Source of the DNA: Candidatus Termititenax sp.
GTDB taxonomy: Bacteria > Margulisbacteria > Riflemargulisbacteria > GWF2-35-9 > DYQY01
Length of the DNA stretch: 64,000 nt
Assembly (NCBI GenBank): GCA_020719045.1
Contig: DYQY01000003.1
Span: 62,149 to 126,148, forward strand
Direction of reading: 5' to 3'
The position numbers were made by a program, and so were the translations under genes. Of the stretch, positions 4,031 to 58,044 are shown piece by piece. Positions within the stretch are counted from its first letter, which is position 1. Each line of letters begins with the position of its first letter. The notes beneath the pieces were generated by a model. That model saw only the letters and a list, made by a program, of their open reading frames with translations, ran no database searches and was not told the DNA's origin.

Positions 4031-6109
4031 TTATTCCTGTAACTCATAACTAATCAGCTGCAACATAACAACTAAGTTCTCAGGCAACTTCCCAAACCTA
4101 TCTTCGCATTCCTTTACTAACTCTTGAACTGCTTGCTTACTATCTAGGCTTGCTATCGATTTATATAACGCCAACCTAATGCTCATATCTGGAATATACT
4201 CTTCTGGGATATATGCTTGCATTCTGGTTGAAATATTCAAATAAGGTCTTTCTCTATGCTTTTCACCTTTTTCACTAGCAATCGCCTCATTTAAAATATG
4301 CATATAGAACTCAAATCCAACAGCTTCCATGTACCCGCTTTGTGCAGTGCCAAGAATATTTCCGATACCTCTAAGTTCTAAATCCCTAAGTGCAATGTCA
4401 TAGCCAGACCCAAGCGTAGAAAACTCCATTAACGCCTCAAAACGCTCCTTTACTTCTTGAGTAAACAAACTCTTGTCTCTGTACAACAAATAGCAATACG
4501 ATTGAATCTGATTCCTTCCAACCCTTCCTCTAAGCTGGTGAAGCTGAGCAAGACCAAAATGTTCTGCATTATTAACTATCATTGTATGTGCATTAGGGAT
4601 GTCCACCCCATTTTCAATAATAGTTGTAGCTATAAGCACATGGAATTTATCTTCATAGAAGTCCATCATCAAGTTTTCTAACTGGTGAGCACTCATCTGC
4701 CCATGACCAACTCGAATATCAATATCAGGTAGTACATGATGAAGCTGATTCCTCAAATGAACAATATCGCTTATGCGATTGTGTAAAATAAAAACTTGCC
4801 CCTTACGTTTAAGCTCAAACTTAATCTTATCCCTAATATAATCTATATCAAACTCATGTGCTTCTGTAATTATTGGTAAACGCGCTAACGGTGGTGTATT
4901 AATAACACTAATGTCTCGAATCCCTGAAATAGACATATATAAGGTTCGTGGTAATGGTGTAGCTGATAGCGTTAGAACATCAATATGACTTCGATATTTT
5001 TTAAGCATCTCCTTTGCAATAACGCCAAACCTCTGCTCCTCATCAATAATAAGTAGTCCTAAGTCACTAAACTCAATATCCTTCTGAAGTAGTCTATGTG
5101 TTCCTACAATAATGTCTATCATTCCTAGCTTTAACCGATTTAAAGTTCCTTGTTGTTCTTTCCTAGTTTTGAACCTGTTTATAAACTCGACATTCACACC
5201 CAAACTCTCAAGCCTACTCTTAAAAACCTCATAATGTTGTTTAGATAAAATCGTCGTTGGTGCAAGCATAGCAACCTGCTTTCGGCTAACAACAGCTTTA
5301 AGTGCTGCTCTTATCGCGACCTCTGTTTTACCAAACCCAACATCACCACAAACCAGTCTATCCATAGCCTTTGGTGCCTCCATGTCTTTTCTAATATCCT
5401 CTATAGCTTTAAGCTGGTCTCGTGTCTCCTTAAATGGAAATGACTCTGCTAACTGCAAAGTAAGCTCACTATCCTCCTGAAAGGAAAAACCATCCCTTAG
5501 CTTCCTGTTTTTATATAGATGGAAAAGATCCTTGGCAACATCTTTAACTACTTTTTTAACTCGCTGCTGTGTCTTTTCCCAGAGCTTGTCTCTCAATGAA
5601 TTAATTACTGGTGATGTGCCTCCAGTAAACTTATATATTCTTGCAAGTTGCTCAATAGGGATAAAAATCTTGTCGCCTTCTTGATACTCAACTACTGCAT
5701 ACTCGCCTTCAAATTTTCCAAACGTCATCCTTTGTAAACCTTGATAAATCCCAATACCATGATTAACATGCACTACTTTATCACCTATATTTAGGTCAAA
5801 CAGTATTTCATGTGGGATTACATACTCGTGATGCTTAATGCTCTTATCAAAGGGATTAATCTCGACACTATCATGTTTTGACAAGGAGCGCTGTGTTGAC
5901 GGCTCAAAGGTTCTAATATCATCAATGACATTATCGAAAAGCTCTATTCTGATCGGGACATTACTATTAGACGTAAAAACATCAATAATACTTCCTCTAA
6001 CAGCATACTCTCCTGGGTTTAGAACAAGTTTTGTTCTGGAATAGTGGTCAGCCTCCAATTCAGCAATTGTTTGCTCGACATCAATTATTAACCCTACTTC
6101 AAATTTCAT
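4031..6109 (-). CDS. mfd: transcription-repair coupling factor Mfd, short form lacking the N-terminal UvrB-homology module
   Basis: 692 aa with SF2 helicase motifs (GDVGFGKTEVA Walker A, LLIIDEEQRFG DEEQ box, LTLSATPLPRT, QLRGRVGR) and a TRG/D7-like C-terminus. Only ~130 nt of non-coding sequence lies upstream before the divergent ferritin gene. Confidence 0.85.
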   Translation of the reverse strand: MKFEVGLIIDVEQTIAELEADHYSRTKLVLNPGEYAVRGSIIDVFTSNSNVPIRIELFDNVIDDIRTFEPSTQRSLSKHDSVEINPFDKSIKHHEYVIPHEILFDLNIGDKVVHVNHGIGIYQGLQRMTFGKFEGEYAVVEYQEGDKIFIPIEQLARIYKFTGGTSPVINSLRDKLWEKTQQRVKKVVKDVAKDLFHLYKNRKLRDGFSFQEDSELTLQLAESFPFKETRDQLKAIEDIRKDMEAPKAMDRLVCGDVGFGKTEVAIRAALKAVVSRKQVAMLAPTTILSKQHYEVFKSRLESLGVNVEFINRFKTRKEQQGTLNRLKLGMIDIIVGTHRLLQKDIEFSDLGLLIIDEEQRFGVIAKEMLKKYRSHIDVLTLSATPLPRTLYMSISGIRDISVINTPPLARLPIITEAHEFDIDYIRDKIKFELKRKGQVFILHNRISDIVHLRNQLHHVLPDIDIRVGHGQMSAHQLENLMMDFYEDKFHVLIATTIIENGVDIPNAHTMIVNNAEHFGLAQLHQLRGRVGRNQIQSYCYLLYRDKSLFTQEVKERFEALMEFSTLGSGYDIALRDLELRGIGNILGTAQSGYMEAVGFEFYMHILNEAIASEKGEKHRERPYLNISTRMQAYIPEEYIPDMSIRLALYKSIASLDSKQAVQELVKECEDRFGKLPENLVVMLQLISYELQE

Positions 6110-7226: not shown

Positions 7227-8498
7227 TTAGGTTCTACGTTTACCGTGCCGAGAACGAAAGGTTTGGTTTTTAGGTGTCCAAGGTTGACGCTCTTGTTGTC
7301 CTTCTTCGTCATGAATGCCTAGATTTTCAGCTGATTCCTCTTGTGCCTCAGTTTCATGACCAAGCAATTGCACCTTCTCACCAACAGGTTCCTCACCTTG
7401 GAGTGCACTCTGTAATGCTTTTTCCGCATCTTCATAAATAATAAGCTCTCCTCTATCACTAACAATAACAATAGCATCTACCAGTACTGGCTCTTTTACT
7501 TCTCTAATTGTTTTGTGTTTGCCTTTATCCAAAGTATTTCCATCGGAACCTGCTGCAGTACTTATACCTCCAAGTATTGGTGCATAAGCCTCGGTCTTAA
7601 CTAGTTCACAAATGGATCCAGCATGACTAGTTAGCACTACAGACACACCACGTTGAAGCGTGTTTGCAAGAATAGCTGCTTCTCCTTTAGTCCATAACTC
7701 ATCACAAACAATGACTTCTGGAGTAAAGCCTACTGTAGAATTTATAAACATTGTCTTTAAATATTCTCTATCCCCTTTGCCTCTTAAAACTGTTGCTGGA
7801 CCAAGAAAAGGATGTTTGCCGGTTTCAGACATACAGGCTATTTCATCTGACGCATCTGCTACTACGACCCTTTTCATTAAATCCATACCTAAATATCTAA
7901 TAATTGACCTTAACCAAGTAGTTTTCCCTGAACCAGGCGCTCCTGCGATTAGAATCTTCTTACCTGACTTAAGCAACTCTGCTAATTTATCAATTCTAGC
8001 TACATCTATATCAATAAGACGGCTAAGCCTAAAAAACATATGGTCAGAGGATGAACCTGCAGGAATATTATCTTCAATAGATACTCTATTTAGTGTTCCT
8101 GGTATGATATGCCTAACGCCTGAAGTGAACACCTTTTCGTTATGTTCTCTTATGGTGGCGATGACTCTTTTCATTACAGTAGCAGTAGTAACGGTTTCAA
8201 AAATATGCCAAGGCAATGCTCCTTCCTTTCCTTTATTATAAAAGAAAGCGATTGCTGGCTCATTTAAGGATATCTTAATATCAATTAAATCATCCAAAAA
8301 ATTAGGACAAGTTTCTAAGATTTCATTTATCTCATCTTGTAAATCAAGTGGTAGCATACTTAATAAACTTTTTTGAAACTTTGCATTCTCCTCTACTAGC
8401 TGTGAGGCTGAAAGCTGATACCTGCTCATATTTGCTACCCTGCGCTCTACTGGGTTTTGAATTACTGCTGATTTTACTGAAACTAATTTATTAAACAT
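7227..8498 (-). CDS. SpoIIIAA/ycf45-family P-loop ATPase with a long charged C-terminal tail
   Basis: Walker A GAPGSGKTT, Walker B VIVCDE, and a downstream VVLTSHAGS block as in SpoIIIAA-like ATPases. The last ~60 aa are Glu/Gln/Arg-rich. The gene looks more G+C-rich than neighbouring genes. Confidence 0.65.
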   Translation of the reverse strand: MFNKLVSVKSAVIQNPVERRVANMSRYQLSASQLVEENAKFQKSLLSMLPLDLQDEINEILETCPNFLDDLIDIKISLNEPAIAFFYNKGKEGALPWHIFETVTTATVMKRVIATIREHNEKVFTSGVRHIIPGTLNRVSIEDNIPAGSSSDHMFFRLSRLIDIDVARIDKLAELLKSGKKILIAGAPGSGKTTWLRSIIRYLGMDLMKRVVVADASDEIACMSETGKHPFLGPATVLRGKGDREYLKTMFINSTVGFTPEVIVCDELWTKGEAAILANTLQRGVSVVLTSHAGSICELVKTEAYAPILGGISTAAGSDGNTLDKGKHKTIREVKEPVLVDAIVIVSDRGELIIYEDAEKALQSALQGEEPVGEKVQLLGHETEAQEESAENLGIHDEEGQQERQPWTPKNQTFRSRHGKRRT

Positions 8499-8592: not shown

Positions 8593-9804
8593 TTATATGT
8601 TTTTACAAGCAACCCAAAGGTCAAACATATTTGCCTCATCATTTCTTCTTGCAAACAACCCACTATTATCGGACCATTCAGCCCTCATAGTTGTATTCAT
8701 GTTTCTAATTAATCCAGGAACAGCTGCTAAATTTCCTTGTTGAATTGCCTGACGAATTAAAGGGAACTCCTCTCTGCTACTTCCTTCCTCCGAAGTTCCT
8801 CTATTAAAAACTAAACTAACAATAGCCGTCTTACAGCCAGCGAGTAGTTTGTCATATGCTTCTACACCAAGCCAATTTCTTGCCATTGAAATATATTTTG
8901 GCATAGTTTTATCTTCATATATCTTCATTGCAACATCATATGGAATTTCTATATCACTAATACTAGCCAAAACGCTGGATTTGCTTTCACCTTTAATATA
9001 CCTAAGTTGAGCTTCTTTAAGTCTATTGCACTTTTCCTCTCCAATATACTCATTTAGCTCCATAACGTTATTATGCTTAAGGTCATACCCAACTCCAATT
9101 GTAATTCCACTATTAACACCGGGAACGGTTGGTTTCTTTAAGATTGCTTCATAATGTGACTTGCTCGAGATCTCAAACTTTGATATAAATTCACTCATTC
9201 CTTGTTCGCCCATTTGATTAAGAAAAGCTGGTTTTTCTTCCAATGACATATTATGTAATGAACTATCACTATATCGCTCATATAATAATCTTGAACTATC
9301 CTGTTCAGATATTTCTATTCCTAATAGAGAGGACATAGCTATTAAAGTATCAGGACCAAGCTTACCGTCTATGGCTATTGATTCTGGCATTAACGATTGA
9401 AAATGCTTTACCACATCCATTATCTGGTCATCTGTTAACCCATGTAAACCTAAAACTTTCTCAGCAAAATCCCTATTCCATGTTCTCCAATCTCCGATTT
9501 TATAACCTGAACTAACTTTCTCATCAACAAATGACTTACTAGTCTCCCCTTTAAATCCATAAGCTATATTTGCCTTAAACGCCTCAGGTGTTTTGTTGTT
9601 TTCTTTGAAATCAAGTATTTCTGGCTTAGTCTGCTCAATACTTCCAGTCGTAGGTGGCCACCCATTAGGACAAACACCGGAAAAACTTACAGGAGTACCT
9701 GTTTCAGGAAAGAACTCAGCAGAAGAATCCTTTCTCTCCACAGAGCTCACTGCAGAAAGACTAGTATTTGTGGCTGCTATATCTAATGGTAATACAAATG
9801 TCAC
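8593..9804 (-). CDS. cytoplasmic (signal-less) peptidoglycan-binding + lysozyme-like (T4/GH24-like) protein with an N-terminal domain of unknown function
   Basis: No signal peptide or TM segment. The central IDGKLGPDTLIAMSSLLG resembles the PG_binding_1 motif. The C-terminal ~170 aa (TIGVGYDL...SLVFNRGT...RR.DEANMF) align by eye with T4 lysozyme/pesticin-type muramidases. Confidence 0.55.
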   Translation of the reverse strand: MTFVLPLDIAATNTSLSAVSSVERKDSSAEFFPETGTPVSFSGVCPNGWPPTTGSIEQTKPEILDFKENNKTPEAFKANIAYGFKGETSKSFVDEKVSSGYKIGDWRTWNRDFAEKVLGLHGLTDDQIMDVVKHFQSLMPESIAIDGKLGPDTLIAMSSLLGIEISEQDSSRLLYERYSDSSLHNMSLEEKPAFLNQMGEQGMSEFISKFEISSKSHYEAILKKPTVPGVNSGITIGVGYDLKHNNVMELNEYIGEEKCNRLKEAQLRYIKGESKSSVLASISDIEIPYDVAMKIYEDKTMPKYISMARNWLGVEAYDKLLAGCKTAIVSLVFNRGTSEEGSSREEFPLIRQAIQQGNLAAVPGLIRNMNTTMRAEWSDNSGLFARRNDEANMFDLWVACKNI

Positions 9805-9888: not shown

Positions 9889-10590
9889 TTAATCTTCTAG
9901 CGCCAAATAGTTAACAGTTTTTGACCAAGAGATTAACAATACCTTTATAATTGGCCACCATAAATATAAGAAAAAAGAATATTCTAAAGCAGCAAGCTTA
10001 GCAAAAAAGAAACCTTTCTTTTTCCCTAAGATGATTATCAATGCCTGCGCAAAACTATAAAGCTCATCAAAAGCAAGATAACATCTACATAGCAAGTTAT
10101 ACTTCTCGACTTTTGTACTATCGAAATCAATAAGCAAAATGTCATTATCCAGAACATACCAATTACCATAATGAGCAATATCTCTATGGAAAAAACCCTT
10201 TTTGTTAATTATTCTAATTGAAGATATCAGCTTCTTAACAACTTGCGCTCTCTCACTATCTGTTATGCTTAACAAATACTCCTTACTATCAACCGCCTTT
10301 ACTCTTTCCATAACAATAACAGTGACATCTTCAAACCAGACTATACCAAAAATTCTAACAAAATACTTCTCAATATCCTTTTTTAGTAAATACTGGTAGT
10401 TATTAAATATCTGTTTGGCTATAAGAGGTTCAGCATAAACCTTAAGTACCAAATTATTTTTCTCATCCAAATAAATAGTAGCTTTCTTAGAACTACTAAT
10501 TTTTTCTAATTCTGAAAGTCTCTCTAGATTAAATGAAATAAAATAATCCTCAAGCTGTGTGCCTTGATTTGTAAGTTTATAGTTAGTCAT
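9889..10590 (-). CDS. small protein-kinase-like (PKL fold; Kdo-kinase/RIO-like) protein with a hydrophobic C-terminal tail
   Basis: 233 aa. A VLKVY beta3-lysine candidate, an HRDIAHYGN catalytic loop and an LIDFD (DFG-equivalent) are present. The last ~40 aa are strongly hydrophobic. The start overlaps the upstream rSAM stop (ATGA). Confidence 0.5.
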   Translation of the reverse strand: MTNYKLTNQGTQLEDYFISFNLERLSELEKISSSKKATIYLDEKNNLVLKVYAEPLIAKQIFNNYQYLLKKDIEKYFVRIFGIVWFEDVTVIVMERVKAVDSKEYLLSITDSERAQVVKKLISSIRIINKKGFFHRDIAHYGNWYVLDNDILLIDFDSTKVEKYNLLCRCYLAFDELYSFAQALIIILGKKKGFFFAKLAALEYSFFLYLWWPIIKVLLISWSKTVNYLALED

Positions 10591-12062
10591 TTAACATCTC
10601 CAAGCTTTTTAAACAATGAAGAAGCAATCAACATATGCTCGGCAAATGGTATTGACCTTTTATTATTGTCATCTTCTTTAATTTCTTTCATCGGGGAATA
10701 TGCATATAGCTCAGAAGATAATACTCCGTTTTCGTTCTTATAAAGCACCAAAGAAGATAACTCTTCTATGCCAAACTTTTCAGGATTCTTCTGCACCTCT
10801 GATCCATAACAAACATGAAAAGGACTTAGTGAGTTATCATAATAATATGGTCTAAGTTCTTTTAGAAAATTCATGGAAAGCGCTAAGTCTTCTTCTGTTT
10901 CACTTGGAAATCCCTGCATCATAAGCACTACATTCTGAATGCCGGCTATATGTGCATCAATAATATTCCTTTTCGCTGCCTCTACAACTACTGGTTTCTT
11001 CATTAACTTTAGTATTCTTGGACTTGCAGACTCTACACCCCAACATATCCACCTGCAACCAGCCTGATACATTTCCTCTAAAACAGTAGCTGTAATCTTC
11101 TCTTGAGGCATAATCATACACGCCCAATAAAACTTTCCTGCTAAAACACTATTAAGAAAACCTACATCATCAAAAGTTATCATCTGGTCAGCCAGAAACA
11201 AAAAATTCACGCCTTTTCCATAAAGAAACTCTGCCTTCTTAATAAAACCTTCCTTGTTTGCATCTACTGAAGGGAAATACATATTATTATGCGAACAAAA
11301 CGTGCATTTATTCCAATCACAGCCTCGCTTATACTGGATAGACACCACTGAGCTTGGGTTAAAATATTTATTTATCTCTATACCATCAAAGTTAGGCTCA
11401 AACACCAACCCCCTTAAAACATTATCTACCTCTTCTGTCTTAATAATCTTCCCACTGTTCCTATAAAACAAATTTGGTATTGCAAAAACATCACTGTTCT
11501 CTGCAAGCTGTTTTAACAAGCAAAACAAACTTTCCTCGCTTTCTCGATGAAGCACATAATCTATTTCTGGGAACATCATCATTAATTGCTTTTTATCTAT
11601 ATGATTAAGATACGACCCACCCAAAATAACAATCTTCTCAGGACATTTCTCTTTAATATACTTAACGAAAGCCATTGTTGAATAGAACTGAGAAGCACCA
11701 CCTCTATGATGAAAGGTCCAAGAAATACAGACGATATCTGCAAGTTTGTTTAAGTCTACCTCTAAAGGAAAATCTATTCCTGTTTCTAAATACTTAACTA
11801 GTTTCTGCTCTAACTCTACCTGAAAAACATTCCACTTCTCGGCAACCAAGTAAGAATCAGACATATAGTTATCCCACTCTCCAGAAACAATACGATTATA
11901 GGATTCTAGCCCACCAAATTGTTTATTAAATAAGTGAATATTTAAATCCAATATTTCAATATCTTTAAAGCCTCTCGCCATAAGATAACCTGCAAGTTCA
12001 CACAAATGATAAGGAATAAAAGTGGGAGAACAAAATGGCAAGAAAACTAACTGGGCTTTCAT
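10587..12062 (-). CDS. B12-binding-domain radical SAM enzyme (class B-like)
   Basis: 491 aa. An N-terminal Rossmann-like B12-binding region (KIVILGGSY) precedes a radical SAM core with cluster motif RGCDWNKCTFCS, which reads as CX4CX2C rather than CX3CX2C. The gene is 3 nt downstream of the sixA-like stop. Confidence 0.75.
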   Translation of the reverse strand: MKAQLVFLPFCSPTFIPYHLCELAGYLMARGFKDIEILDLNIHLFNKQFGGLESYNRIVSGEWDNYMSDSYLVAEKWNVFQVELEQKLVKYLETGIDFPLEVDLNKLADIVCISWTFHHRGGASQFYSTMAFVKYIKEKCPEKIVILGGSYLNHIDKKQLMMMFPEIDYVLHRESEESLFCLLKQLAENSDVFAIPNLFYRNSGKIIKTEEVDNVLRGLVFEPNFDGIEINKYFNPSSVVSIQYKRGCDWNKCTFCSHNNMYFPSVDANKEGFIKKAEFLYGKGVNFLFLADQMITFDDVGFLNSVLAGKFYWACMIMPQEKITATVLEEMYQAGCRWICWGVESASPRILKLMKKPVVVEAAKRNIIDAHIAGIQNVVLMMQGFPSETEEDLALSMNFLKELRPYYYDNSLSPFHVCYGSEVQKNPEKFGIEELSSLVLYKNENGVLSSELYAYSPMKEIKEDDNNKRSIPFAEHMLIASSLFKKLGDVK

Positions 12063-56991: not shown

Positions 56992-58044
56992 TTATACTAA
57001 AAAATAATTATTAACCGAGAACTCATATTGCTGAATAAATAACTCTTTTAAATAAGCAATACTATTCTGTTCATAAAAAAACAACATTGCTTTCTTATAT
57101 TCAACACTATCAACACTACGATATGATAAAGGACAAGCACCAAAAGCATTTAGTATTGCATTACCAGCCAACCTAGCCGTCCTCTTGTTCCCGTCCACAA
57201 AAGGTTGAATATAAGAAATAAGAGCAATAATAACAAGTGCCTTATGAAATGGATCTTCATATGCATTAATCAAACCAACACTACTCTCTAGTGCCTCTTG
57301 TATTTGTTGCTTATTATCTAATGGTCTATAGTTTGTTCCAGTAATACTCACTAAAGAATTCCTTACACCAAAACCAACTGAAAGATTCTGAACCAACAAT
57401 GCATGAATATCCTCAATCTTCCTTACACTCATTTCAAGATAATCTATTTTACTAGAAAAAACATAGTTTAATGCAGTTTTATGATTTAATATCATTATTG
57501 CCTCTTCCTTGCTATGTCCTGGTGCCTCTCTGTTTTCCTTAATAAGAGCCTCCGTATCCAAAAGAGAATAAGTATTACCTTCAATCTGTGAGGATTTCCA
57601 ACTAAGCTCAATAGTCAGTCTCTCTATTTCCTTTTTAAATATATCTGGCGATATACTAGAAATATTTGTTGTGTACTTCTTAGTTAATTGCGCCAAATTC
57701 TTAAGCTCTTTTAAAGAAAATATATCTGAAAAATCATTAAATATATTAAAGTTAAAGCTTTTTTTTACTTCCCTATTATCTGGCTCTAATAAAAAATATT
57801 TTTGCGGATCAAAATAACTCAATAAGGAACTATTCATATATACTCTATACTTCGTACTTCTTCCTTCTCCCTCTTTTTTAATTAACTTTTCATTAATCAA
57901 CACTTCAATGTCACGAACTATTGTTATTCGAGAAACATCATCATAGGTTTCAGCCAAAAATTTCTTTATTTCACTATTAGAAACTAAAGATTTGGCTCTA
58001 ATAAAATCATAAATATTATACTGTCTTTGCGTTAATTGTTTCAT
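56992..58044 (-). CDS. Fic/Fido-domain protein with degenerate active-site motif and N-terminal wHTH-like region
   Basis: Motif reads IQPFVDGNKRTARL; the CAA (Gln) codon was confirmed on the minus strand where canonical Fic has HPFx[DE]GNGRxxR. Confidence 0.7.
   Translation of the reverse strand: MKQLTQRQYNIYDFIRAKSLVSNSEIKKFLAETYDDVSRITIVRDIEVLINEKLIKKEGEGRSTKYRVYMNSSLLSYFDPQKYFLLEPDNREVKKSFNFNIFNDFSDIFSLKELKNLAQLTKKYTTNISSISPDIFKKEIERLTIELSWKSSQIEGNTYSLLDTEALIKENREAPGHSKEEAIMILNHKTALNYVFSSKIDYLEMSVRKIEDIHALLVQNLSVGFGVRNSLVSITGTNYRPLDNKQQIQEALESSVGLINAYEDPFHKALVIIALISYIQPFVDGNKRTARLAGNAILNAFGACPLSYRSVDSVEYKKAMLFFYEQNSIAYLKELFIQQYEFSVNNYFLV

What the first reader, a model, noticed from the sequence alone, without database searches (positions are those of the whole stretch)
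8593..9804. Signal-less PG-binding + T4-lysozyme-like protein with unknown N-terminal domain
The protein has no signal peptide or TM segment, yet carries a PG_binding_1-like segment and a C-terminal T4/pesticin-type muramidase-like domain. That architecture is typical of phage endolysins, bacteriocins (pesticin-like) or contact-dependent/T6SS muramidase effectors, not housekeeping autolysins. The first ~110 residues match nothing I recognise and could be a trafficking or receptor-binding module. The gene and the upstream ATPase gene look more G+C-rich than their neighbours, by rough eye count on a few segments and not computed. No other phage structural genes, holin or immunity-like gene are obvious nearby, so an orphan endolysin/effector of foreign origin is plausible.
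Basis: partly seen in the sequence, partly recalled or inferred. Interest (0 to 1): 0.6.

Follow-up and report, generated by a model that had tools for sequence, protein, structure and literature searches.

The report
Signal-less pesticin-type lysozyme, lineage-specific N-module
This gene of an uncultured marine Margulisbacterium encodes a cell-wall-cutting enzyme of the phage-endolysin/pesticin type with an extra front part found in only a handful of related genomes; it is a native, long-resident gene rather than recent foreign DNA, and how it leaves the cell is unknown.

Summary

The "foreign origin" reading fails. GC is 0.366 against 0.347±0.027 for the window, GC3 is below average, and codon usage is typical (rank 56 of 60). 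The gene occupies the same position, next to flavin reductase, ferritin and mfd, in four Marinamargulisbacteria genomes.

Two things are new. The front module (about residues 52-165) occurs only in this clade. In sister genomes the adjacent gene carries the same module fused to an M15 peptidase or to a Cys/His domain, and one orthologue adds a YkuD domain. N-module and lysozyme identities are incongruent between orthologues.

Most likely this is a domesticated endolysin-type muramidase with a lineage-specific targeting or export module. It is a new variant of a known kind, of moderate interest.

The parts
8593..9804 (-). Complete CDS, 403 aa, GTG start, stop codon at 8593-8595
   Evidence: One search lists the ORF. 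Searches give orthologues with the same N-terminus. A purine-rich GGGGCGGAAG lies 7-16 nt upstream of the start.
9634..9804 (-). Residues 1-57: predicted disordered, acidic, S/T/N/P-rich leader with no hydrophobic core
   Evidence: AF2 pLDDT is below 50 for residues 1-57. Identity to orthologues is only 18-39%.
9445..9633 (-). Residues 58-120: four short helices, basic (pI 8.2), with invariant F92, W106, W109 and F113. Clade-specific module with no fold match.
9250..9444 (-). Residues 121-185: divergent PG_binding_1-like three-helix domain (VVKHFQ...DGKLGPDT)
8596..9207 (-). Residues 200-403: pesticin-type GH24 (T4-lysozyme fold) muramidase domain
9172..9174 (-). Codon for E211, the candidate catalytic glutamate at the end of the first helix of the domain
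   Evidence: Conserved in 148 of 151 family domains. It ends helix H200-211 in the model. Pesticin Glu-178 and T4L Glu-11 are the equivalents by position; the HMM alignment is imprecise at this point.
9082..9102 (-). Codons for T235-I-G-V-G-Y-D241, the pesticin T201...D207 motif
   Evidence: T is conserved in 149 of 151 domains and D in 151 of 151. The motif aligns to pesticin GVTFGSGVD. Pesticin T201A and D207A are inactive (PMC3390615).
8635..8649 (-). Codons for R386-R387...E390, the conserved substrate-binding arginines
   Evidence: Conserved in 150 or 151 of 151 domains. They align to pesticin R339-R340 in 'SDRRKRE'.
7227..8498 (-). Downstream same-strand gene after a 94-nt gap: 423-aa P-loop ATPase of the VirB11/SpoIIIAA traffic-ATPase type. 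A possible partner, not shown to be one.
   Evidence: TIGR02858 E 2e-10 and VirB11 E 2.6e-6. PDB VirB11/HP0525 E 1e-5. It holds the same position in L084 at 80% identity. Only two clusters exist in the protein database.
9889..12062 (-). Upstream same-strand pair: a B12-type radical SAM gene (10587-12062) overlapping by 4 nt a kinase-like gene (9889-10590). Variable neighbours whose link to the lysozyme is unproven.
   Evidence: The pair is present in the window and L001, the kinase-like gene alone in L081, and neither in L084.

Best explanation
The gene encodes a catalytically competent peptidoglycan muramidase of the pesticin subtype of the T4-lysozyme (GH24) fold, tethered to the cell wall by a divergent PG_binding_1 domain. 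This two-domain unit belongs to a large family that is abundant in phages as endolysins and also scattered through bacterial chromosomes.

In one clade of Marinamargulisbacteria the unit was captured long ago. It became a resident chromosomal gene and acquired a clade-specific front end: about 57 disordered residues followed by about 60 helical residues with a W-x-x-W-N-x-D-F signature.

Shown here: fold, family, intact active-site residues, native composition, conserved synteny, and sharing of the front module with adjacent M15-peptidase and Cys/His paralogues in sister genomes.

Inferred: the enzyme cleaves the MurNAc-GlcNAc bond of peptidoglycan in the periplasm, either its own or a neighbour's. 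The front module, not a Sec or Tat signal, would direct the protein to its route or site of action. The locus would then be a small, fast-evolving cassette of cell-wall hydrolases that share one targeting module. Whether the target wall is self (remodelling or lysis) or non-self (antagonism) is not resolved.
For: - Family: a profile has pesticin as its best PDB hit, E 6.6e-5, with T235 and D241 aligned to T201 and D207 and R386/R387 to R339/R340.
- Active site: E211, T235, D241, N334-R335-G336, R386-R387 and E390 are conserved in 98-100% of 151 domains and are all present here.
- PG-binding domain.
- Family size and phage link: 1869 representative clusters, 8 GenBank phages mostly annotated as endolysin, and more than 550 IMG/VR stretches.
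- Native status: GC and GC3, codon usage, synteny in four genomes, and housekeeping surroundings with no phage genes.
- Clade-specific module: only 4-5 clusters among 5.8 billion proteins and one JGI contig.
- Shared module: the L081 M15 protein and the L001 364-aa protein share it at 33% identity, E 3e-23. Orthologue-versus-paralogue profiles give 95% probability, E 2e-8. The M15 domain is confirmed at E 8e-13. P0002 carries an extra YkuD_2 domain, E 3e-31.
- Fast, mosaic divergence: the N-module is 65% identical to P0004 and 38% to P0003, while the lysozyme domain is 36% and 56% respectively. Mfd is 77% and 90%.
Against: - No enzymatic, localisation or expression data exist.
- No export route is identified. 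There is no holin, no secretion system and no immunity gene in the 64 kb, so the enzyme could stay cytoplasmic and have a non-lytic role, as proposed for the SpmX muramidase domain.
- The alignment of E211 with pesticin Glu-178 is positional, not residue-exact, in the HMM alignment.
- The module-sharing signal between orthologues and paralogues is moderate: BLASTP E 1e-4 and 4e-4, and an independent HMM gives E 3.8e-4 and 0.21. Part of it is the PG-binding-like segment itself.
- The Cys/His (CHAP-like) assignment of the L001 paralogue rests on a PDB hit at E 0.5.
- The four lysozyme domains still form one clade in a neighbour-joining tree. The mosaic identities may therefore reflect uneven rates rather than domain swapping.
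Confidence: 0.6

Rival explanations
1. Antibacterial effector of a polymorphic-toxin type. The clade-specific front module would be a delivery domain recognised by a secretion or injection apparatus encoded elsewhere. The lysozyme, YkuD, M15 and Cys/His domains would be interchangeable periplasm-targeting warheads, as in T6SS WHIX, MIX or VgrG3cp effectors carrying pesticin-like domains.
For: - One module sits on several different peptidoglycan-targeting domains in adjacent genes of a variable locus.
- One orthologue is two-headed, with lysozyme plus YkuD_2. [quoted passage not shown]
- A PG-binding plus pesticin-like T6SS effector is known: VgrG3cp (PMC9927483).
- The protein has no signal peptide and diverges fast and mosaically.
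- Distant relatives are fused to patatin, trypsin and GDSL lipase domains in proteins of up to 1399 aa.
Against: - None of the four loci has an adjacent small gene for a secreted immunity protein. Intergenic gaps are 84 and 94 nt, whereas wall-targeting effectors of diderms are normally paired with one.
- No T6SS, T4SS or T7SS component, PAAR, VgrG or adaptor lies in the 64 kb.
- There is no WHxxxH, MIX or other known delivery motif.
- The gene is single-copy and syntenic in all four genomes, more like a core gene than an arsenal gene.
Confidence: 0.25
2. Remnant or domesticated phage or GTA-type endolysin used for programmed lysis of the producer, for example to release particles, DNA or vesicles. 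Membrane passage would be provided by a holin-like function encoded elsewhere.
For: - The catalytic domain family is common in viral contigs, and GenBank phages annotate it as endolysin.
- The two nearest non-orthologous relatives, P0020 and P0022 at 40% identity, weakly match the Bartonella GTA endolysin model BgtA, E 8e-6.
- A signal-less PG-binding plus catalytic-domain layout is the classical modular endolysin of phages of Gram-negative bacteria (established knowledge).
Against: - No phage or GTA structural gene, integrase, holin or spanin lies in the window or in the three sister loci.
- Composition is fully native.
- The 120-residue front extension is absent from the phage and other bacterial relatives, whose matches begin at about residue 120-130.
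- The paralogues with M15 and Cys/His domains are not explained by a single lysis gene.
Confidence: 0.15
3. Housekeeping wall-remodelling enzyme that works with the downstream VirB11/SpoIIIAA-like ATPase as part of an envelope-spanning machine. It would make local gaps in peptidoglycan for that machine, as VirB1, FlgJ or SpoIID-type hydrolases do, and would be exported through the machine via its disordered N-terminus.
For: - The ATPase is on the same strand, 94 nt downstream, and holds this position in two of the four genomes at 80% identity.
- Its core resembles VirB11, TrbB and SpoIIIAA.
- The disordered Ser/Thr-rich N-terminus without a hydrophobic core resembles the signals of substrates that pass through dedicated machines (inference only).
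- The position is conserved and the gene is single-copy in all four genomes.
Against: - The ATPase is absent from this position in L081 and L001, where a hydrolase paralogue replaces it.
- No membrane components of any such machine are nearby.
- The ATPase similarity is confined to the P-loop core, about residues 133-308.
- A housekeeping enzyme would not be expected to diverge to 43-46% identity while Mfd stays at 77-90%.
Confidence: 0.12
4. Cytoplasmic, non-lytic protein. The lysozyme fold would be co-opted as a binding or scaffolding domain, as proposed for Caulobacter SpmX, or would act on a cytoplasmic glycan or precursor, so no export is needed.
For: - There is no export signal.
- 137 of 144 family representatives also lack a hydrophobic N-terminus, and many sit among unrelated housekeeping genes.
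Against: - The full catalytic and substrate-binding residue set is strictly conserved across the family and in this protein. A PG-binding domain is retained. Both argue for action on mature peptidoglycan.
- Paralogues carry other bona fide wall hydrolase domains.
Confidence: 0.08

Closest known systems
Pesticin activity domain (Yersinia pestis Pst, PDB 4AQN/4EPF; Pfam PF16754)
   Same: Both have the T4-lysozyme fold. The active site is arranged the same way: Glu at the end of the first helix, Thr about 23-24 residues later, Asp six residues after the Thr, and a conserved Arg-Arg near the C-terminus. Pesticin is the best PDB match of the family profile.
   Different: Pesticin has N-terminal TonB-box translocation and FyuA receptor-binding domains and a plasmid-borne immunity gene; none of these is present here. 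The Pfam Pesticin score is below the gathering threshold (14.6 versus 25.8 bits). Identity is only about 13% in the structural alignment.
Modular phage endolysins with an N-terminal PG_binding_1 domain and a C-terminal lysozyme-like domain (for example the Xylella phage Salvo and Xanthomonas/Stenotrophomonas phage endolysins; KZ144-type layout)
   Same: They are signal-less, with the PG-binding domain before the catalytic domain. The catalytic domain is homologous at 28-30% identity, E 1e-8 to 3e-16, and more than 550 IMG/VR stretches reach 30-37%.
   Different: This protein has an extra 120-residue front end, lies in no phage context, has no holin or spanin, has native composition, and is syntenic across four genomes.
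T6SS pesticin-like effectors (V. cholerae VgrG3cp, V. fluvialis TssI2, WHIX effectors with pesticin-like C-termini)
   Same: A delivery module is fused to a PG-binding site plus a pesticin-like domain. Some have two toxic domains (PMC9927483, PMC9620997, PMC12135965). They are polymorphic at the C-terminus.
   Different: There is no VgrG, PAAR or WHIX (WHxxxH) domain, no cognate immunity gene, and no T6SS genes in view. The front module is about 120 aa and unrelated in sequence.
Uncharacterised bacterial family of about 200-300-aa signal-less (PG_binding_1 +) pesticin-like lysozymes (P0005, P0011-P0158)
   Same: The two-domain unit, residues about 120-400, is homologous at E down to 8e-63, with the same invariant residues. 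Most members also lack a signal and lie among housekeeping genes.
   Different: These proteins start at the PG-binding or lysozyme domain. The residue 1-120 module of the window protein is absent from all of them.

Membership tests
GH24 / T4-lysozyme-fold muramidases | Two-lobed alpha/beta lysozyme fold superposable on T4L, P22 or lambda-type lysozymes | tested here: met
GH24 / T4-lysozyme-fold muramidases | Catalytic Glu at the end of helix 1, and Thr in the TIGxG strand (T4L E11 and T26) | tested here: met
   E211 ends helix H200-211. 'SGITIGVGYDL' aligns to T4L 'GYYTIGIGHLL', so T235 equals T26. Both are at least 98% conserved.
GH24 / T4-lysozyme-fold muramidases | Asp about 9 residues after the Glu (T4L D20; the E-8aa-D/C-5aa-T triad of the canonical subgroup) | tested here: not met
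   The stretch nine residues after E211 has no conserved acidic residue. The spacing from E211 to T235 is 24 residues, against 15 in T4L. The protein therefore falls in the pesticin arrangement, not the canonical T4L/P22 one.
Pesticin-type lysozyme domain (PF16754) | Glu...Thr-x5-Asp active site (Pst E178, T201, D207) and a C-terminal Arg-Arg (R339, R340) | tested here: met
   T235 and D241 align to pesticin T201 and D207, and R386/R387 to R339/R340, in the profile alignment. The residue roles come from PMC3390615. The E211 equivalence is by position only.
Pesticin-type lysozyme domain (PF16754) | Score above the Pfam gathering threshold | tested here: not met
   14.6 bits against a cut-off of 25.8, E 0.033. 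Four of five family members hit the model, with a best E of 2.7e-5. The protein is a divergent relative, not a curated member.
Pesticin-type lysozyme domain (PF16754) | Muramidase activity (cleavage of the MurNAc-GlcNAc bond) | not testable with these tools
   This needs an enzyme assay on sacculi with product analysis.
PG_binding_1 (PF01471) | Three-helix bundle with the V/L-x-x-L/F-Q ... D-G-x-F/L-G-x-x-T signature | tested here: met
PG_binding_1 (PF01471) | Direct Pfam hit above threshold | tested here: not met
   There is no hit at E<=10 on the window protein. Only two of five aligned family members hit the model.
Phage endolysin (functional class) | Encoded in a phage or prophage lysis cassette with a holin (and spanin) | tested here: not met
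   No phage genes lie in the 64 kb or in the sister loci. PHROGs gives no hit. No small membrane ORF lies in the 84- and 94-nt gaps.
T6SS/polymorphic peptidoglycan-targeting effector | Adjacent cognate immunity gene encoding a periplasmic protein | tested here: not met
   None is present in any of the four loci.
T6SS/polymorphic peptidoglycan-targeting effector | Known delivery domain or motif (PAAR, VgrG, MIX, FIX, WHIX WHxxxH, LXG, XVIPCD) or linkage to apparatus genes | tested here: not met
   Pfam and NCBIfam give no such hit. No WHxxxH motif occurs in residues 1-200 (the sequence against the motif definition). No apparatus genes lie in the window. The rest of the genome was not available.
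T6SS/polymorphic peptidoglycan-targeting effector | Conserved N-terminal module combined with varied C-terminal toxin domains | tested here: inconclusive
   The module is shared with an M15 peptidase and a Cys/His protein, and one orthologue has an extra YkuD_2 domain. This rests on only 3-4 architectures from 4 genomes.
Sec/Tat-exported autolysin | N-terminal signal peptide, twin-arginine motif or lipobox | tested here: not met
   The maximum 9-residue hydropathy of 1.96 falls at FVLPLDIAA, which contains an Asp. There is no basic n-region, no RR motif and no lipobox. This is a heuristic; SignalP-type predictors were not available.

The most novel reading that the evidence does not exclude
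The front module of about 120 residues (disordered leader plus the W-x-x-W-N-x-D-F helical bundle, continuing into the degenerate PG-binding segment) is a new delivery or targeting domain. It would define a small polymorphic family of signal-less cell-wall-attacking proteins (lysozyme, lysozyme+YkuD, M15 peptidase, Cys/His hydrolase) in Marinamargulisbacteria. These would be exported by an as yet unrecognised route, possibly involving the clade-restricted VirB11/SpoIIIAA-like ATPase next door. It would be the first antagonism or lysis system described in this uncultured sister phylum of Cyanobacteria.
Probability: 0.2. Interest if true: 0.7.

Novelty: new variant of a known kind. Interest (0 to 1): 0.4.

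Why it matters
The enzyme itself is ordinary: a pesticin/endolysin-type muramidase.

Two points go beyond that.

First, it is a clean example of an endolysin-type gene that has become a stable, compositionally native chromosomal resident in an uncultured phylum. It belongs to a very large family (about 1,900 representative clusters) whose members almost all lack export signals and mostly sit outside phage or secretion-system contexts. How such enzymes reach the wall is an open and general question.

Second, one clade-specific front module sits on three different wall-hydrolase chemistries in one small variable locus. This offers a concrete handle, a roughly 120-residue sequence, for finding the targeting or export route in Margulisbacteria, a phylum in which nothing is known about envelope biology or interbacterial antagonism.

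Tried and rejected
1. Foreign origin. Windowed GC, per-gene GC1/2/3 and a leave-one-out synonymous-codon likelihood all show native composition. Rejected.
2. Hidden signal peptide from a mis-called start. The ORF is already maximal and the start is conserved. Rejected.
3. Prophage or lysis cassette. PHROGs gives no hit, the neighbours are housekeeping genes, and there is no small TM ORF. Rejected for this locus.
4. Anti-phage defence system. PADLOC gives nothing for the target and only P-loop or kinase-level noise for its neighbours. Rejected.
6. Finding more carriers of the front module. A profile search of 5.8 billion proteins, a JGI metagenome scan (an earlier attempt failed for lack of conserved columns) and an HMM search of all held loci found nothing beyond the four orthologue lineages and two paralogues.
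7. Direct hhalign of the family to the T4L sequence was insignificant (probability 1%). It did place TIGxG on TIGIG.
8. Neighbourhood statistics for 34 distant family loci. There is no enrichment of phage or T6SS families; DprA and aminotransferases are the most frequent. Only 4 of 33 loci have a small same-strand membrane neighbour. ORF calling in GC-rich loci was crude.
9. Domain-swap test. In a neighbour-joining tree the four orthologue lysozyme domains still form one clade, so replacement of the C-terminal domain is not demonstrated.
10. WHIX, MIX or LXG-type motifs were not found.
11. The L001 paralogue and the L081 385-aa protein show no similarity to each other.
12. Exact look-up of the window's own 403-aa product found nothing on record. 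The near-identical 404-aa allele located the source contig.
Full report
**1. The observation**

The window carries an ORF at 8593-9804 on the minus strand, 403 aa with a GTG start. It is the longest reading possible, because the ORF finder starts at the first start codon after an in-frame stop. Orthologues begin with the same residues (MTFVLPLD, MAIVLPLD, MTGALSLD), and a purine-rich stretch precedes the start. There is therefore no room for a hidden signal peptide.

A hydropathy scan finds no TM segment (maximum 19-residue Kyte-Doolittle mean 1.16), no twin-arginine motif and no lipobox. The first 57 residues are acidic and 42% S/T/N/P/Q. This check is heuristic, because no trained signal predictor was available.

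**2. Domain anatomy**

Pfam gives only sub-threshold hits: Phage_lysozyme at E 0.0097 and Pesticin at E 0.033. It gives no PG_binding_1 hit. NCBIfam and PHROGs give nothing useful.

An AlphaFold2 model built on five homologues has mean pLDDT 73. It shows:
- residues 1-57 disordered (pLDDT below 50);
- four short helices at residues 61-117;
- a three-helix unit at residues 125-179;
- a well-modelled C-terminal domain (pLDDT about 80-95).

A 40-sequence family profile has pesticin as its best PDB match (E 6.6e-5). It aligns 'SGITIGVGYD' with pesticin 'TGVTFGSGVD' and 'RRNDEA' with 'RRKREG'. [quoted passage not shown]

In 151 aligned family domains, conservation is as follows:
- E211: 98%;
- T235: 99%;
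- D241: 100%;
- N334-R335-G336: 100%;
- R386: 99%; R387: 100%;
- E390: 100%.

All of these residues are present in the window protein, and the codon coordinates were verified. The canonical T4L Asp-20 position is not conserved, and the Glu-to-Thr spacing is 24 residues rather than 15. The domain is therefore of the pesticin arrangement, not the T4L/P22 one.

**3. Composition and origin**

- The window averages 0.347 GC. Forty-seven ORFs of at least 200 aa have 0.347 ± 0.027.
- The target has 0.366 and the ATPase 0.383.
- Their GC3 values (0.262 and 0.248) are below the window mean of 0.284, so the slight excess comes from amino-acid composition.
- A leave-one-out synonymous-codon likelihood ranks the target 56th of 60 genes in typicality, z +1.36.

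The best genomic relative is in a Candidatus Marinamargulisbacteria MAG. The window is almost identical to contig CDCLUB010000006.1 of GCA_974328665.1; over 5.2 kb they differ by a 3-nt indel at the 3' end of this gene and one SNP.

In four genomes the gene sits between a His-phosphatase (SixA-like)/NYN side and a flavin reductase-ferritin-mfd side. Identities to the window protein are 74%, 46% and 43%, while Mfd is 91%, 90% and 77%. The rest of the 64 kb is ordinary core genome: RND pump and TolC-like OEP, PolA, pyrH, frr, uppS, dxr, dprA, feoAB and others. It has no phage or secretion genes and no Rfam hit.

The gene is therefore native and old in this clade. It is not a recent import.

**4. 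The family**

A word-indexed search of 5.8 billion proteins finds only five clusters. An exhaustive profile search of 1.84 billion representatives finds 1869 proteins at E<=0.001, but all of them except the orthologues match only from about residue 120-130 (PG-binding plus lysozyme) or about residue 200 (lysozyme alone).

Relatives occur fused to patatin, trypsin, GDSL lipase and Ig-like domains. They occur in eight GenBank phages, six of which annotate the match as endolysin, and in more than 550 IMG/VR stretches.

Of 144 representatives with a Met start, 137 lack a hydrophobic N-terminus. In 34 bacterial loci the flanking genes are heterogeneous housekeeping genes, with no enrichment of phage or T6SS families. 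Only 4 of 33 loci have a small same-strand membrane-protein neighbour.

**5. The front module**

Residues 1-120 are confined to the orthologues. Further profile and metagenome searches add only one JGI contig of the same lineage as L001.

In two sister genomes the gene immediately downstream encodes a protein with a related front part:
- L081 9374-10774 ends in a Peptidase_M15 domain (E 8e-13).
- L001 11208-12302 ends in a Cys/His region, weakly CHAP-like (E 0.5).

These two share the front module at 33% identity, E 3e-23. Evidence linking them to the orthologues:
- BLASTP to the window protein gives E 1e-4 and 4e-4.
- An HMM built from the orthologues alone finds them as its top non-self hits, at E 3.8e-4 and 0.21.
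- Profile-profile comparison gives 95% probability, E 2e-8, over residues 52-164.

Orthologue P0002 has an additional C-terminal YkuD_2 domain (E 3e-31).

Domain identities are incongruent with genome relatedness. P0004 has N-module 65% and lysozyme 36%, while P0003 has N-module 38% and lysozyme 56%. A neighbour-joining tree still unites the four lysozyme domains.

**6. Neighbours**

Downstream, after a 94-nt gap on the same strand, is a 423-aa ATPase. Its P-loop core resembles SpoIIIAA (E 2e-10), VirB11 and TrbB and the solved VirB11/HP0525 (E 1e-5). It is present in this position in two of the four genomes and has only two clusters in the protein database.

Upstream are a kinase-like protein and a B12-type radical SAM enzyme, translationally coupled by a 4-nt overlap. 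These are variably present. PADLOC finds no defence system. Promoter and terminator scans are at background level.

**7. Interpretation**

The shown facts support a catalytically intact, PG-anchored, pesticin-type muramidase. It derives from the endolysin-type PG-binding-lysozyme family and is domesticated in one Marinamargulisbacteria clade. It carries a clade-specific front module that also occurs on other wall hydrolases in the same small, fast-evolving locus.

How it crosses the inner membrane is unknown, and so is whose wall it cuts. I rank the options as follows:
- a general "domesticated muramidase with a targeting or export module" statement (0.6);
- an antagonistic polymorphic effector (0.25), weakened by the lack of an immunity gene and of any apparatus;
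- a lysis enzyme of phage or GTA descent (0.15);
- a machine-associated remodelling enzyme working with the ATPase (0.12);
- a cytoplasmic non-lytic role (0.08).

These rivals specify the target and route that the main statement leaves open, and they overlap with it.

**8. Verdict**

The N-terminal "trafficking module" idea remains a reasonable but untested lead. This is a new variant of a known kind, of moderate interest (0.4).

Noticed in passing
window 9889-12062 (-): A B12-binding-type radical SAM enzyme (best NCBIfam match a RiPP maturation C-methyltransferase, E 7.5e-25) overlaps by 4 nt a 233-aa protein-kinase-like gene with a hydrophobic C-terminus. The pair is present in the window and L001, the kinase-like gene alone in L081, and neither in L084.
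   Followed up: partly
window 7227-8498 (-): A VirB11/SpoIIIAA-like P-loop ATPase with an unmatched N-terminal domain of about 165 aa and a charged disordered tail. Only two clusters (this one and L084's) were found in 5.8 billion proteins by the word-indexed search.
   Followed up: partly
L081 10793-11950 (-): A 385-aa protein with three PSFW[EQ]RLFG repeats in a low-complexity N-half and a Cys/His-containing C-half. It has no family hit. It lies between the M15 paralogue and flavin reductase.
   Followed up: partly
L001 5923-7545 (-); L081 4445-6082 (-): A 540-545-aa protein with a weak LPD3 (polyvalent-protein) hit is inserted between the NYN gene and the SixA/rSAM side in two sister genomes. 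It is absent from the window, which makes it a second variable spot in this neighbourhood.
   Followed up: no
window 4031-6109 (-): Mfd (TRCF) is only 692 aa here and 691-692 aa in all four genomes, well short of the roughly 1,150 aa usual in bacteria. Pfam still finds the UvrB_inter, CarD_TRCF_RID, helicase and TRCF domains.
   Followed up: no
L089 1-10867 (P0011 locus): The closest two-domain relative (288 aa, PG_binding_1 plus lysozyme) is the last gene of an 11-gene same-strand block. Those products (117-720 aa) have almost no Pfam hits. The block may be an unrecognised phage-tail-like or other apparatus.
   Followed up: no
window 8596-8625 versus L085: The only differences from the near-identical public contig over 5.2 kb are a GTA codon indel (LWVACKNI versus LWVVACKNI) at the 3' end of the target gene and one SNP.
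   Followed up: yes
window 56992-58044 (-): A 350-aa Fic-domain protein next to a small iron-dependent repressor and feoAB, noted only from precomputed Pfam hits.
   Followed up: no
window 1-64000: There is no Rfam match at gathering thresholds anywhere in the 64 kb, so no tRNA, riboswitch or sRNA family was recognised.
   Followed up: no
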